Origin: Escherichia coli
GTDB taxonomy: Bacteria > Pseudomonadota > Gammaproteobacteria > Enterobacterales > Enterobacteriaceae
Reading direction: 5' to 3' (one strand)
Assembly (NCBI RefSeq): GCF_050920415.1
Contig: NZ_CP169310.1
Length of the DNA: 64,000 nucleotides
In this document: positions 51,001 to 57,000 of the stretch, piece by piece
Numbering within the stretch: position 1 is the stretch's first letter
How the letters are laid out: each line of letters begins with the position of its first letter
Program-made: the position numbers

Positions 51001-54000
51001 AAAGGAATGAAATGGTGAAACTGAGAGGAAAGGAAAGCGGTGACGAATCATGTCACCATATACAGAAAGATGTCTAATGGGGACTCTTCAGGTACCTGAA
51101 GAATCCCCATAACGCATTTAAAAGACACCCATCAGATATCCTCAAGGTATCCTATGAATTATTGACCTATTGCACCGTCACGTTCAAGCTTCTCTCTTAT
51201 AGCCTCAATAATATATGAGCTAAAATCCAGAGATGTTTTACTGGTCGCTTTAAGTTCCGCATGTGCTTCAAAATACGACAGCGGTATGGCCTTAAGATTC
51301 TTAGCCTTCGTCCTGGCAGCTACGGGACGACCTGAAACTTCCTCTGCACCTTCATTTGGCTGAGACGGGACTGTTGCTGTTACGGCAGAAGAAGAAGTTT
51401 GTAATCTGGCAGAATCCACCAGGTTTTTCAGTTTTTCAGCCTGTGCACTAAATTTCGCTTTGCTCATGAGATAACCCAGGATGTTTGTTAGATACTCAAA
51501 AGATATCTATTAAAACCCTAAAGGATACTATATGGATACCCAATGGATATACCTTACTGTTTATTATTTTCAATCAGATGATTGATTTCTTCGATCAGGG
51601 CAATAACTTCCTTACCTCCTGCCGAATAGCGCCCATGAACAGACTCAGTGATTCCCATCCCAGTCTCAATGACATCCTCAAATTCTGCACGAGCAGAAAT
51701 GCGGCTCTTCATCAGCTTCAGATGTTTGAACGATGGCAGGATTGCATCAAGCTTAGGGAATTTCTTCTTGTTAGGATTAACTTTACAGAGATACAGGTGA
51801 GCAATTATATCGGTCCCCATGATAGAGCTGATTTCGTCCAGTACTCCATCAAAATGCATCAAACCAATACGCTCAGTCAGGGAATCTTTTGAAGGGACAA
51901 TAACGCAGTCTGCAAAGGCAATCGCAGTACGGGTAAGATCTGAGTCAAATCCCCCACAGTCAATAAGTAACGTCTTATCGCTGTTCTTGTAGGGAGTCAT
52001 AATTTCGATTAACTCATCCACTGTTTTGGGTACTTTCACGGAAATTTCTTTTCCTTCAGGTCTCAGCCCCAGAATGATAGAAAGCCCAGTATGAGTATCC
52101 AGATCAACTGTATCAGACTTCATTTCACCAACAATGTTTACGGATGAAGTTGTCTTACCCACACCACCTTTGGGATGCGTATTAGCAATAACAGGCATAG
52201 TGTATCTCCAGAATCCAAATGTAATACCCATAAAGAACCCCAAAGACATCTTTCGGATATCCAAGAGGTACTCAACAGATGTTTTTTTACTCTATACCAG
52301 TCCGGCATGTCAACAGAATATGAAATACCGATAATATATCCATGAGATATCCGAAAGGGATTTAAAAAAGTCAGAGCTTAAGGAATTCTTTTGAGCATAG
52401 ACACTGCATCGGACTCAGGCATCGCAAACTGCACCCGGTGCCGTGCAGCCACATCCAGTGCAAACACCTTCGTGTAGACCTCTGTTGAGCTGATGGACTT
52501 ATGCCCCATCAGGCTCTGCAGGACCTTCAGTGGAATACCGGCATACAGCATATGCATCGCATAGGAGTGGCGGAATGTATGTGGTGTGACAAGAACAGAG
52601 AACGTCACACCGTCAGCAGCAGCGGCGGCAACCGCTTCCCCAATCCAGGTCCTGACTGTTCTGTCCGTCACTTCCCAGATCCTCACTTTCTCTGTTCTGC
52701 CGGTGCGACAGTTACGCCGCTCCCTGGGGATTTTCAGTGTTGCCACCATCGTCTGCAGCTGGCTGAGGTACCAGGCATCAGAGATGCGGAACCAGCCGGT
52801 GAGTCTGCTTACCGGCCGGCGATCTTCCTGCCGTTCTGGCTGTCTTTTCGGTCCGTTGTTTCAGGGTCGCAAGCTGCACAAACGGATACGGAGGCGCGAG
52901 CGAAAAATCCCCCCGTGTCAGCGCCAGTGCTTCATTAATGCGCGCACCGGTGTTCCACAGTGTGGCCAGCAGCATCTTGCGGCGCAGATCCGGGACGTAA
53001 TGGAGCAGGGCACTCACTTCCGGAGCCAGCAGATATTTCGGCAGTTCATCATGGACCATCGACATCTGGCGAAGTGCCAGAGCTGCCGGATAATCAATGA
53101 CAGCAGGAAGTTGTGGAGACTGTCCGGCAGAATACACTGCCGGTACCATGGCTGCAGACTGGCTGTGTATAACGGAGCCTGACATTTATATTCCCCAGAA
53201 CATCAGGTTAATGGCGTTTTTGATGTCATTTTCGCGGTGGCTGAGATTGTCAGCGCCAGTGATATAAGACGGTAATTCGCCATTTGGATTGTCCGCTCCA
53301 CCCAACATGTTGTTTCCTTAAGGTTCTCACACCAGAAAGGACATCAACATGCTGAGCAGAGAGGACTTTTACATGATAAAGCAAATGCGCCAGCAGGGCG
53401 CGTACATTGTCGATATTGCGACTCAGATTGGTTGCTCTGAACGGACGGTCAGACGCTACTTCAAATACCCTGAACCGCCAGCCAGAAAAACCCGCCACAA
53501 AATGGTTAAGCTGAAACCGTTTATGGATTACATCGACATGCGCCTGGCAGAGAATGTCTGGAATAGCGAGGTTATCTTCGCGGAGATTAAGGCAATGGGT
53601 TATACGGGCGGACGTTCCATGCTGCGTTACTACATCCAGCCCAAACGTAAAATGCGTCCGTCAAAAAGAACAGTTCGCTTCGAAACTCAGCCAGGATACC
53701 AGCTCCAGCACGACTGGGGCGAAGTTGAGGTGGAGGTTGCCGGCAACGGTGCAAAGTTAACTTTGCGGTTAATACGCTGGGGTTCTCCCGCCGCTTCCAT
53801 GTCTTCGCCGCACCAAAACAGGATGCTGAGCATACCTACGAATCACTGGTTCGCGCCTTCCGCTACTTCGGTGGTTGATCCTACCCTCGTAATATGGACA
53901 CTGCTCTAAGCGAGGTTCTGGTTTTCAAATTGTTCCGGACTGAGGCCGCCACACCAACTGTGCCGTCGCCAGCGATTGTAATCACATTCGATACAATTAA

Positions 54001-57000
54001 ACACTGTTGCCCGCATTATTTCCCGGCTGATAAAGTGTTCTCCGTGGAGACATTCCACTTTCAGCAAATGAAAGAAGCTTTCCACGCAGGCATTATCGTA
54101 GCAGCAGCCCTTTGCGCTCATACTGCCACGCAGATTATGCCGCTTCAGCAGCGCCTGATAATCTGCTGAACAGTACTGGCTTCCGCGGTCCGAGTGAACG
54201 ATAACGTTCCGGGGTCTCTTACGCCGCCACAGCGCCATCTGCAGGGCATCGCAGGCCAGTTGCGCCGTCATACGTGGCGACATGGACCAGCCAATAACGG
54301 CACGTGACCACAGGTCAATGACCACTGCCAGATACAGCCAGCCTTCATCTGTACGTAAGTACGTGATGTCTCCCGCCCACTTCTGGTTCGGACCACTGGC
54401 GTAAAAATCCTGCTCCAGCAGATTTTCTGACACAGGCAGGCCATGTGCGCGGTAACTGACCGGGCTGAACTTCCGGGAGGCCTTTGCCCTCAGCCCCTGA
54501 CGGCGCAGGCTTGCCGCCACAGTTTTTACGTTAAAGGGGTAACCCTGAGCACGCAGTTCATCCGTCAGGCGTGGTGCACCGTAACGCTGTTTTGACCGGG
54601 TAAAAGCCGCGAGGACAACGCTGTCGCAGTGCTGACGGAACTGCTGACGAGGGCTTATCCTTGTCCGCCGCTGACACCACGTATACCAGCCGCTGCGGGC
54701 CACCCGGAGCACGCGGCACATAGCCTTGATGCTGAACTCAGCCTGATGTTTTTCAATAAAGACATACTTCATTTCAGGCACTTCGCGAAGTATGTCGCGG
54801 CCTTTTGGAGGATAGCCAGCTCTTCATCCCGTTCTGCCAGCTGGCGTTTGAGACGTGCAATCTCGGTAGACATCTCCAGTTCACGTTCAGAAGACGTCTG
54901 CTGATTTTGCTGTTTACTGCGCCAGTTGTAGAGTTGTGATTCATACAGGCTGAGTTCACGGGCTGCGGCAGCAACACCGATGCGTTCAGCAAGCTTCAGG
55001 GCTTCACTGCGAAATTCAGGCGAATGCTGTTTACGTGTTTTTTTGCTGGTTGATACTGTTTTTGTCATGCGAGTCACCTCTGACTGAGAGTTTACTCACT
55101 TAGCCGCGTGTCCACTATTGCTGGGTAAGATCAGATAGATAATAGCTTTATCAAGTAATTTAATACTATCCATTCCATTAACTCTTTTTTAAAGATAAAA
55201 AACTGTACCATAGTTTGTTTAAATAACATAGATAATCGTTACAAGATTATTGCAGAAATCTATATCATATAAAAAGCCAATATATTATTTATATACTAAC
55301 GTTCACGTAAACTTTCATTAATAGTTTCATTTAATGGACTAAGAAGATAGCTGATAACACTACGCACTCCTGTTTTTATTTCTGCCATAACCGTCATTCC
55401 AGCTGTAACAGGAATTTTTTTTCTTTCTCCCTGTATATCATTCCGATCAATAGATATAATCACGTTAAATACAAGTCCTGTATCCGGAACAGAAACAGAA
55501 TCTGCAGTTATATTTTTTACTTTCCCCGTAAGGTAACCATAGCGTGTATATGGATATGCATCTACTTTAATAACTACCTCCTGTCCAGGTTGTATAAAAC
55601 CGATATCCTTGTTAAGTACAGACGCTGTAACTTCGAGAATGTCATTATCAGGGACAATCATCATCAGCGTTTCTGCTGTTGTGACAACTCCACCTTCTGT
55701 ATGTATATTTAACTCCTGAACAGTACCACTAACAGGAGCTTTAATAAAAGATGACGCTTTTCTCTGCCTGTTTTTTTCAAGCTCATGCTCCAGTAACACA
55801 ATGTTATCTGTTGATTTTCTGTGCTTCTCGATAATTTCACTTCTGAAAATATTCGTCTCCAGTGCCAGTTCTTCCCGCACAAGTTCTATTTCTTTTTCAA
55901 GTTGAGAAACCTGTGCAAGCCAGACTGCATGTTCATTTTTTGCCTGAATATACTTATTTTCCTGCTCCATAACTGAATGTTGAGAAACAGCTTTTTTATT
56001 CAACAAATACTTAAAATCATTGAGTTTTTTTTCTTCATGTGATACCTGATGCTCATACAGGCTAACACGAGCAAGCGCTGCATCCCGTTCAACTACTTTT
56101 TTATTTAATGTAAGCTGCTTTTGATTTTTTCTGTTCTGCCATGTCATGAATTGTTCTTTTATTAATGAGCTAACCCTCAGAAAATGTTCACCTCCCGCAT
56201 TATCTTCTCCACCAGGAAAATCTGTTATCCTTATTTCTGGAAGCTCATTCTTTTGAATTGATTCAGAAAGAATTGCGTAGCGATATTGTTCTGTTTTTTC
56301 ATACAACAAAGATGCTTCTGATTTTGAAATATCAGATTCAACACCAGGCACTGTCAATTCAACTAATGGATCATTTTTTTTTACAAAAGCGCCATCTTTT
56401 ACCATTATTTTTTCTACAATTGCATTCTCTATCGGTTTTATTTCTTTGCTTCTTCCACTATGAGTAAACTTACCATTTGCTACTGAGACTATTTCTACTT
56501 TCCCAAGGACAGATAAGAGAAGAGATATAATTACAAATAATAAAATACTCCATATAACAAAATGAGAACGTCTGGATACTGGTGTTTCAATGAGTTCAAG
56601 GTGAGCAGGAAGAAATGCATACTCATCTTTTTCTCTGACAGGAGCGTCAAGTGTGTGACGAATTTTCCAGACATCAGAAAAAACCGCCTTATAACGGCAA
56701 ATCAAATCCCATAAACTTTTCATGTAAAAGCGCATACATTATGCCTGCAAATGATATAAATATGCATATAAACTGTCTTTTTTGGAGATAAGCTCTTTAT
56801 GTGTGCCATCTTCAGAAATAATACCATTATCCATAACAATTATTCTTTTTGCATTTTTTACAGTGGACAACCTGTGTGCAATAATAATTACGGTTCTGTT
56901 CTTACATATTCTTGACATATTTTTCATTATTATATTTTCCGACTCATAATCAAGAGCACTTGTTGCTTCATCAAAAATAAGAATTCGAGGATTTGTAACA

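What the first reader, a model, noticed from the sequence alone, without database searches (positions are those of the whole stretch)
53249..55133. Divergent second IS21-family copy truncated and frameshifted, with IS3 inserted against the ehx operon and no target duplication
The istA fragment at 53349-53876 differs at many positions from the complete IS21 at 47177-49300, so it is a distinct isoform and not a recent duplicate. It has an internal frameshift and is cut off by IS3. The IS3 flanks (GGT on one side, GAT on the other) do not match, indicating that an IS3-mediated deletion or rearrangement juxtaposed this IS cluster with the 3' end of ehxD.
Basis: seen in the sequence. Interest (0 to 1): 0.3.

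Follow-up and report, generated by a model that had tools for sequence, protein, structure and literature searches.

The report
Decayed IS21/IS3 junction beside ehxD
This is an ordinary scar on a virulence plasmid: an intact IS3 insertion sequence sits between a broken IS21-type element and the broken regulator gene that normally follows the enterohaemolysin operon, with the DNA that once lay between them lost.

Summary
Window 53248-53875 is the left end of an IS21-type element. It carries the terminal repeat and the first 176 codons of istA, with a 1-bp deletion after codon 131. It is only 87.6% identical to the complete element at 47176-49300, which NCBI's annotation pipeline (PGAP) labels ISEc62-type.

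A complete 1258-bp IS3 at 53876-55133 cuts the fragment off. Its 3-bp flanks are GGT and GAT. Three control IS3 copies in other plasmids have perfect 3-bp duplications.

IS3 does not touch ehxD. It cuts the papX-like MarR-family regulator gene that follows ehxD in pO157 and pO165, leaving that gene's first 40 bp.

The missing halves of istA and papX are absent from the sister plasmid. The two reciprocal junctions are absent from 72,556 plasmids and 5,426 complete E. coli genomes.

About 14 complete genomes with STEC/ETEC chimeric plasmids of this group share the junction, and RefSeq already annotates all three pseudogenes or elements. Three cryptic-clade-I plasmids later lost the IS3 plus 5 bp.

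The finding is ordinary, already annotated and of low interest.

The parts
53248..53875 (+). 5' fragment of an IS21-type element: left terminal repeat plus istA codons 1-176 (istA pseudogene 53349-53875)
   Evidence: 87.6% identical to the full copy in the window. 97.9% identical to an intact 2131-bp IS21-type element. IstA residues 1-131 match that intact element at 130/131. NCBIfam IS21 transposase model, E = 1.2e-25. PGAP: 'IS21-like element IS21 family transposase; frameshifted; missing C-terminus'.
53741..53742 (+). Frameshift site: a GG run that is GGG in both intact relatives (1-bp deletion after istA codon 131)
53873..53875 (.). GGT, the flank at the IS3 right-repeat (IRR) end; it belongs to istA (GGTGGT|TG...)
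53876..55133 (-). Complete IS3 (a variant 96.6% identical to canonical IS3). OrfA 54769-55077 and OrfB 53906-54781. AAAAG slippery motif at element position 328. Imperfect terminal repeats, 26/39 matching.
   Evidence: PGAP: 'IS3 family transposase, programmed frameshift'.
55134..55136 (.). GAT, the flank at the IS3 left-repeat (IRL) end; it belongs to the papX-like gene (GTTGTT|GATAGATAA)
55134..55229 (-). 5' remnant of the papX-like MarR-family regulator gene that follows ehxD in pO157 and pO165. 40 bp remain by the pO165 start codon. PGAP marks 55135-55229 as a truncated 'transcriptional regulator'.
55296..56735 (-). ehxD, intact (479 aa), last gene of ehxCABD; its stop codon lies 162 bp from the IS3 end
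47176..49300 (-). Complete ISEc62-type IS21-family element, 2125 bp (istA 390 aa, istB 265 aa). 4-bp target duplication GAGT at 47172-47175 and 49301-49304. Inserted in a umuC pseudogene. This is the comparator used in the finding.
45983..46122 (-). 140-bp remnant of an IS3 left end, 97.9% identical to 54994-55133, followed by GGT

Best explanation
The region is a non-functional scar left by successive insertion-sequence events on a STEC/ETEC chimeric IncF virulence plasmid of the p7v-like group.

Step 1 (shown). An IS21-type element inserted next to the resD-like integrase region of the IncFIA backbone. Its left end is at 53248.

Step 2 (inferred). Two copies of IS3 lay in the same orientation. 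One was inside istA of that element, at a GGT target. The other was at codon 14 of the papX-like regulator gene just downstream of ehxD, at a GAT target. The copies were either on one molecule or on two replicons that fused.

Step 3 (inferred). Homologous recombination between the two copies left a single IS3. It kept the istA-side flank of one copy and the papX-side flank of the other. Everything between them was lost: the 3' part of istA, istB, the body of papX, and whatever else lay there.

Step 4 (shown). The orphaned istA fragment then lost one base, giving the frameshift.

IS3 itself remains intact and probably active. Nothing here is expected to affect haemolysin production, because ehxD and 162 bp downstream of it are untouched.

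The umbrella claim is that loss of DNA bounded by the IS3 ends joined two unrelated truncated genes; I put that at about 0.9. The specific two-copy recombination route is about 0.5.
For: Each 3-bp flank continues its own parental gene. Intact IS21-type istA reads TTCGGTGGT|TGTGTGAAAAC. Intact papX reads CATTCTGTTGTT|GATAGATAA.

IS3 is complete to the last base on both sides, so both breakpoints coincide exactly with IS3 termini.

Control IS3 copies carry perfect 3-bp duplications: ACA in pO165, GGC in CP088772.1, and GGG for the same IS3 variant in pCFSAN004178P_02.

The rest of the IS21-type element and the rest of papX are absent from all 225 kb of the sister plasmid pCFSAN004180G.

Neither reciprocal junction exists in PLSDB or in 5,426 complete E. 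coli genomes. Those genomes include at least two hosts that carry this junction, GB089 and 09-00049.

The plasmid holds seven IS3-related BLAST segments, which correspond to six loci because one partial copy spans the record origin. That gives ample substrate for recombination.

From established knowledge: IS3-family elements move by copy-out-paste-in. That mechanism gives simple insertions, so flank-mismatched copies are classically explained by recombination between two copies.
Against: No intermediate with two IS3 copies was found, so the two-copy step is inferred, not shown.

The IS3 sequence shows no clear mosaic pattern that would mark a hybrid. Differences from canonical IS3 thin out gradually from the right repeat towards the left repeat. 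If both parents were the same variant, no signal would be expected anyway.

The same IS3 variant lacks a duplication at two other sites. In Escherichia sp. 10290 pla1 the flanks are CAT/GTT and 744 bp are missing. In pSTEC299_1 the flanks are AGG/AAG. This could instead point to a transposase-linked adjacent-deletion process.
Confidence: 0.5

Rival explanations
1. Single-copy adjacent deletion. One IS3 inserted normally, either in istA or in papX. A transposase-dependent break at one of its ends, possibly helped by the IS-excision enhancer (IEE) found in many STEC, then removed the neighbouring DNA up to the other gene. The element was left in place with one new flank.
For: Both breakpoints lie exactly at IS3 ends.

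The same variant is flank-mismatched at two further sites, one with 744 bp missing.

Three sister plasmids lost this very IS3 plus 5 bp, with 1 bp of microhomology. That is the kind of product reported for IEE. IEE acts on IS3-family elements and gives deletions of a few nt to more than 40 kb next to the IS (PMC9943667, citing Kusumoto 2011).
Against: As described in the paper read here, IEE-dependent events remove the IS. Retention of a complete IS next to the deletion was not documented in what I read.

Copy-out-paste-in does not cleave the donor backbone (established knowledge).

The presence of iee in the hosts was not tested.
Confidence: 0.33
2. Inversion or translocation. Recombination between inverted IS3 copies moved the missing halves elsewhere in the genome rather than deleting them.
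For: Unmatched flanks alone are equally compatible with an inversion. Several IS3 remnants exist on the plasmid.
Against: No other piece of the IS21-type element or of papX is found in the sister plasmid. Neither reciprocal junction is found in any of 5,426 complete genomes, including strains GB089 and 09-00049.
Confidence: 0.03
3. Simple IS3 insertion into a pre-existing istA/papX junction, with a later point mutation in one copy of the 3-bp duplication (GGT to GAT or the reverse).
For: The flanks differ at only one of three bases.
Against: Both triplets match their own parental genes at all three positions.

The IS3-free sister junction reads ...CTACTTCGG|ATAGATAA. It lacks four istA bases (TGGT) that the window retains, so it is derived from the IS3-bearing form and is not its ancestor.
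Confidence: 0.02
4. Assembly artefact at a repeated element.
For: IS copies are classic sites of misassembly.
Against: The identical junction is found in about 14 finished genomes from different laboratories and sources: lettuce, ground beef, a crow and Japanese cattle. Three further plasmids carry a derivative of it.
Confidence: 0.01

Closest known systems
IS21 (IS21 family; 2131 bp, istA plus istB), as labelled by PGAP on many IncF plasmids
   Same: The fragment shares the left terminal repeat and 130/131 of the first IstA residues with intact 2131-bp copies. DNA identity is 97.9% to the copy in CP088772.1, and 97-99% over the first ~165 bp to many IncF copies.
   Different: Only the first 628 bp remain. 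There is no DDE-domain C-terminus, no istB and no right end, and the reading frame is broken. It cannot move or encode a transposase.
ISEc62-type IS21-family element (the complete copy at 47176-49300)
   Same: Same family and gene order, and the left end is nearly identical over its first 50 bases (47/50).
   Different: It is 12.4% divergent in DNA (87.6% identity). It is complete, has a 4-bp GAGT duplication, lies on the opposite strand, and is absent from sister plasmids.
IS3 of E. coli K-12 / F plasmid (IS3 family, 1258 bp)
   Same: Same length, same OrfA/OrfB layout with the AAAAG slippery site, and same terminal repeats. It is 96.6% identical to the F-plasmid copy.
   Different: It is a variant whose copies at 99% identity or more occur only in this plasmid group. 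This copy has no 3-bp target duplication.
ehxCABD-papX arrangement of pO157 (Sakai AB011549, gene annotated papX) and pO165
   Same: ehxD and the 162 bp beyond it are collinear with those plasmids (96% identity over 221 bp to pO165).
   Different: Here the papX-like MarR gene is cut after about 40 bp by IS3. In 436 of 576 matching plasmids at least 80% of the 501-bp query, which contains the 405-bp gene, is covered. Other ehx plasmids are broken at three other points within the same 56 bp.
p7v-like STEC/ETEC chimeric virulence plasmids (Okuno et al. 2023, PMC10100065)
   Same: The window aligns at 99.95-100% with pCFSAN004180G apart from two IS differences. It shares this junction with the plasmid of strain 10290, which that paper describes as remarkably similar to p7v. 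I did not compare the window with p7v itself.
   Different: The paper does not mention IS3 or this junction.

Membership tests
IS21 family (truncated fragment 53248-53875) | IstA transposase homology | tested here: met
   NCBIfam NF033546, E = 1.2e-25 over profile positions 2-129. The score is below the full-length cut-off only because the protein is truncated. 130/131 identical to an intact IstA.
IS21 family (truncated fragment 53248-53875) | Terminal inverted repeat beginning with TG | tested here: met
   TGTCAGCGCC... at 53248; 47/50 identical to the left end of the complete copy. The right end is missing.
IS21 family (truncated fragment 53248-53875) | istB helper ATPase gene downstream of istA | tested here: not met
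   Absent: IS3 begins at istA codon 177. No other copy of this isoform's istB is present in the sister plasmid. The fragment is a remnant of a family member, not a functional member.
IS21 family (truncated fragment 53248-53875) | Short (4-8 bp) target duplication | not testable with these tools
   The right end is deleted, so only the left flank (AGAT) can be read.
IS21 family (complete copy 47176-49300) | IstA plus IstB, TG-initiated repeats, short target duplication | tested here: met
   IstA scores 280 bits (cut-off 160). IstB scores 297 bits (cut-off 200). The ends begin TGTCA. The duplication GAGT flanks the element, and the site is empty in sister plasmids.
IS3 family / IS3 | OrfA and OrfB in the 0 and -1 frames with a slippery site, and a DDE transposase | tested here: met
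   OrfB scores 340 bits against NF033516 (cut-off 160). OrfA matches the N-terminal part of the profile. AAAAG lies in the overlap. PGAP: 'programmed frameshift'.
IS3 family / IS3 | Imperfect terminal inverted repeats ending TG...CA | tested here: met
   TGATCC... and ...GATCA; 26/39 positions match.
IS3 family / IS3 | 3-bp direct target duplication around a simple insertion | tested here: not met
   GGT versus GAT here. ACA, GGC and GGG duplications are present around three control copies. This says the copy is not a simple insertion, not that it is not IS3.
ehxCABD enterohaemolysin operon with downstream papX-like regulator | Intact papX-like MarR gene following ehxD | tested here: not met
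   Only the first 40 bp remain by the pO165 start codon; PGAP annotates a 95-bp pseudogene.

The most novel reading that the evidence does not exclude
This plasmid group may preserve a natural series of IS3 behaviour. In one stage an IS3 variant repeatedly sits at flank-mismatched sites with neighbouring DNA missing (3 of 4 distinct sites examined). In a later stage the same copy has been removed near-precisely, together with 5 bp and with 1 bp of microhomology, in cryptic-clade-I hosts. If these events track the presence of the IS-excision enhancer in the host, they would be field evidence for IEE-driven remodelling of a virulence plasmid by IS3 itself.
Probability: 0.12. Interest if true: 0.25.

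Novelty: already known. Interest (0 to 1): 0.08.

Why it matters
It matters little. It documents how the ehx (enterohaemolysin) module became attached to an IncFIA backbone segment in STEC/ETEC chimeric plasmids of this group. It also shows that the ehxD-distal edge of the module is a recurrent breakpoint in ehx plasmids.

The junction sequence, and its IS3-free derivative, could serve as a lineage marker for this plasmid group.

No new element, gene or mechanism is involved. Haemolysin genes are unaffected.

Tried and rejected
(1) Link between the two GGT flanks. A second IS3 left-end remnant at 45983-46122 is also followed by GGT. I tested whether it could be the reciprocal partner of the GGT at 53873-53875. 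Its flank is an IS91-type zinc-binding transposase remnant next to a umuC pseudogene, not istA. The match is a 1-in-64 coincidence.

(2) Mosaic IS3 as evidence of a hybrid. Differences from canonical IS3 fall off gradually along the element, with 22 in the first 340 bp and 6 in the last 353 bp. There is no sharp switch, so this is inconclusive.

(3) Hits that seemed to extend 7-8 bp beyond the IS3 end (for example CP101979.1). These turned out to be a gapped chance extension. That plasmid actually has IS21 inserted inside IS3, which is unrelated.

(4) Search for an intact IS21 at the same backbone site, to learn what was deleted. The backbone/IS21 left junction exists only in the seven plasmids of this group in PLSDB.

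(5) An IS3 1.7 kb beyond papX in pO165-type plasmids as the possible ancestor. It is the canonical IS3 (96.6% identical to the window's variant) and has its own ACA duplication, so it is not the same copy.

(6) Rfam scan of 52000-56000: no match. Promoter and terminator scan of 53100-55400: no more sites than in shuffled sequence.

(7) A Pfam scan failed on a frame error of mine and was not repeated, because NCBIfam had already answered the question.
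Full report
**What is there**

Reading left to right on the + strand:
- 52378-53185 (-): a resD-like site-specific integrase pseudogene belonging to the IncFIA backbone.
- 53248-53875: the left end of an IS21-type element.
- 53876-55133: a complete IS3, with its transposase on the - strand.
- From 55134: a short 5' remnant of a papX-like MarR-family regulator gene.
- 55296-56735 (-): ehxD, the last gene of ehxCABD.

The window aligns at 99.95-100% with pCFSAN004180G (E. coli 09-00049) apart from two IS differences. That plasmid is a 225-kb IncFIA/FIB plasmid carrying ehx, sta1, a K88-like fimbrial cluster and a type VI secretion system. 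Okuno et al. describe large est-positive plasmids of cryptic-clade-I strains, including strain 10290, as STEC/ETEC chimeric plasmids remarkably similar to p7v (PMC10100065). The plasmid of strain 10290 shares the junction studied here. I did not compare the window with p7v itself.

**Checking the observation**

The fragment begins with the family-typical TGTCAGCGCC at 53248. It aligns to the complete element at 49300-48673 (- strand) with 87.6% identity.

Against an intact 2131-bp IS21-type element in CP088772.1 it is 97.9% identical, and its first 131 IstA residues match at 130/131. Against the IstA of the window's own complete copy the match is 124/131.

One G is missing from a GGG run at 53741-53742, after codon 131. 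Restoring it gives IstA up to ...RYFGG (Gly176), where homology stops and IS3 begins.

IS3 is complete: 1258 bp, both terminal repeats, OrfA/OrfB with the AAAAG slippery motif, and an OrfB score of 340 bits against a cut-off of 160.

Its 3-bp flanks are GGT (53873-53875) and GAT (55134-55136).

**The two IS21-family copies**

PGAP labels the fragment 'IS21-like element IS21 family; frameshifted; missing C-terminus'. It labels a copy 100% identical to the complete element 'ISEc62 family'.

The complete element (47176-49300, 2125 bp) has a GAGT duplication and interrupts a umuC pseudogene 51 bp from its end. It is absent from pCFSAN004180G and pCFSAN004181P, where the target is uninterrupted.

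So it is a recent, independent insertion of a different isoform. The fragment is an old remnant.

**What IS3 is joined to**

On the left, the intact IS21-type sequence continues TTCGGTGGT|TGTGTGAAAAC, so GGT is istA sequence.

On the right, pO165 and pO157 read ...CATTCTGTTGTT|GATAGATAATA... inside a 405-bp MarR-family gene, annotated papX in pO157 Sakai, that follows ehxD. So GAT is papX sequence.

IS3 therefore cuts that gene after its first 40 bp by the pO165 start codon. PGAP marks 55135-55229 as a truncated transcriptional regulator. IS3 is 162 bp from the ehxD stop codon and does not touch ehxD.

**Is the flank mismatch meaningful?**

Three control copies carry perfect 3-bp duplications:
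- canonical IS3 in pO165: ACA;
- canonical IS3 in CP088772.1: GGC;
- the same IS3 variant in pCFSAN004178P_02: GGG, at a site that is empty in pCFSAN004180G.

The mismatch here is not a mutated duplication, because each triplet matches its own parental gene at all three bases.

**Where the missing halves are**

The rest of the IS21-type element (3' part of istA, istB, right end) has no match anywhere in the 225-kb sister plasmid. Neither does the rest of papX.

I built the two reciprocal junctions that an inversion or a two-copy ancestor would contain. No record covers either junction in 72,556 plasmids. None does in 5,426 complete E. coli genomes, which include at least two hosts carrying this junction, GB089 and 09-00049.

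The backbone/IS21 left junction occurs only in the seven plasmids of this group in PLSDB.

The DNA was therefore lost, not moved.

**Mechanism**

Both breakpoints coincide exactly with the ends of a complete IS3, so IS3 was the agent.

IS3-family elements transpose by copy-out-paste-in, which gives simple insertions (established knowledge). The classical route to a flank-mismatched copy is therefore recombination between two copies in the same orientation. Here that means one copy in istA and one in papX, either on one molecule (giving a deletion) or on two replicons (giving fusion, followed by loss of the reciprocal product).

The plasmid holds seven IS3-related BLAST segments, which correspond to six loci because one partial copy spans the record origin. 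Substrates were plentiful.

I favour this route at about 0.5. The main rival is a single-copy, transposase-linked adjacent deletion, at about 0.33. It gains some support from three observations:
- the same variant lacks a duplication in Escherichia sp. 10290 pla1, where the flanks are CAT/GTT and 744 bp are missing relative to pCFSAN004180G;
- it also lacks one in pSTEC299_1, where the flanks are AGG/AAG;
- the IS-excision enhancer acts on IS3-family elements and produces deletions of a few nucleotides to more than 40 kb next to the element (PMC9943667).

No intermediate was found, so the choice between these two routes is inference.

**A later step in sister plasmids**

The plasmids of Escherichia sp. 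10290, KS167_9B and HH154_1D carry the same frameshifted fragment, joined directly to the papX remnant...CTACTTCGG|ATAGATAATAGC. Compared with the window they lack TGGT + IS3 + G, a total of 1263 bp, with one G of microhomology.

The window retains four more bases of genuine istA sequence, so the IS3-bearing form is ancestral. These plasmids lost IS3 by near-precise excision.

**Comparison with other ehx plasmids**

Of the 576 plasmids that match a 501-bp pO165 query containing the 405-bp papX-like gene, 436 cover at least 80% of the query.

Others are broken at different points within the same 56 bp: pO165 coordinates 6932, 6949, 6982 (this one) and 6987. The partner sequences differ. The ehxD-distal edge of the module is a recurrent breakpoint.

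**Nothing else of note**

There is no Rfam match in 52000-56000. Promoter-like and terminator-like sites are no more frequent than in shuffled sequence.

**Verdict**

The features are already annotated in RefSeq, and the kind of event is commonplace on IS-rich virulence plasmids. Interest is low.

Noticed in passing
window 47172-49304: The complete ISEc62-type element, with a GAGT duplication, interrupts a umuC pseudogene 51 bp before its end. It is absent from the sister plasmids pCFSAN004180G and pCFSAN004181P. A 100% identical copy sits at a different site in Escherichia sp. 10290 pla1, so the element is currently active in this plasmid group.
   Followed up: yes
window 34139-34150: pCFSAN004180G carries an IS421 (IS4 family) insertion here that the window lacks. 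The 12 bases are the single copy of its target duplication.
   Followed up: partly
window 45983-46122: A 140-bp remnant of an IS3 left end lies next to a YopT-like protease gene region. The module 45260-46125 is repeated at 93.5% identity elsewhere in the sister plasmid (record 139211-140058). The GGT that follows it is a chance match to the GGT at 53873-53875.
   Followed up: yes
window 52378-53185 (-): The resD-like site-specific integrase of the IncFIA region is split into two reading frames (123 aa and 135 aa). PGAP annotates it as frameshifted.
   Followed up: no
L009 7160-7185 (Escherichia sp. 10290 pla1): This is an IS3-free derivative of the junction...CTACTTCGG|ATAGATAATAGC. It has lost 1263 bp (TGGT + IS3 + G) with 1 bp of microhomology. 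The search hits for KS167_9B and HH154_1D show the same pattern. It resembles the excision products reported for the IS-excision enhancer.
   Followed up: partly
L011 2701-3958; L015 1501-2758: The same IS3 variant has no target duplication at two other sites. In pla1 the flanks are CAT/GTT and 744 bp are missing relative to pCFSAN004180G 192147-192890. In pSTEC299_1 the flanks are AGG/AAG. Only 1 of 4 distinct sites of this variant has a duplication.
   Followed up: partly
L014 2501-5885 (CP101979.1): The reverse nesting occurs here: an intact IS21-type element is inserted inside an IS3. The two element types often occur together on IncF plasmids.
   Followed up: yes
L016 2450-2501; L018 2450-2501: In two other ehx plasmids the papX 5' end is broken 50 bp and 5 bp away from the window's breakpoint. 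In both it abuts related sequences (TTAAGATACA..CTGTCTGG..GGGGGC) that look like the end of a mobile element. The element was not identified.
   Followed up: no
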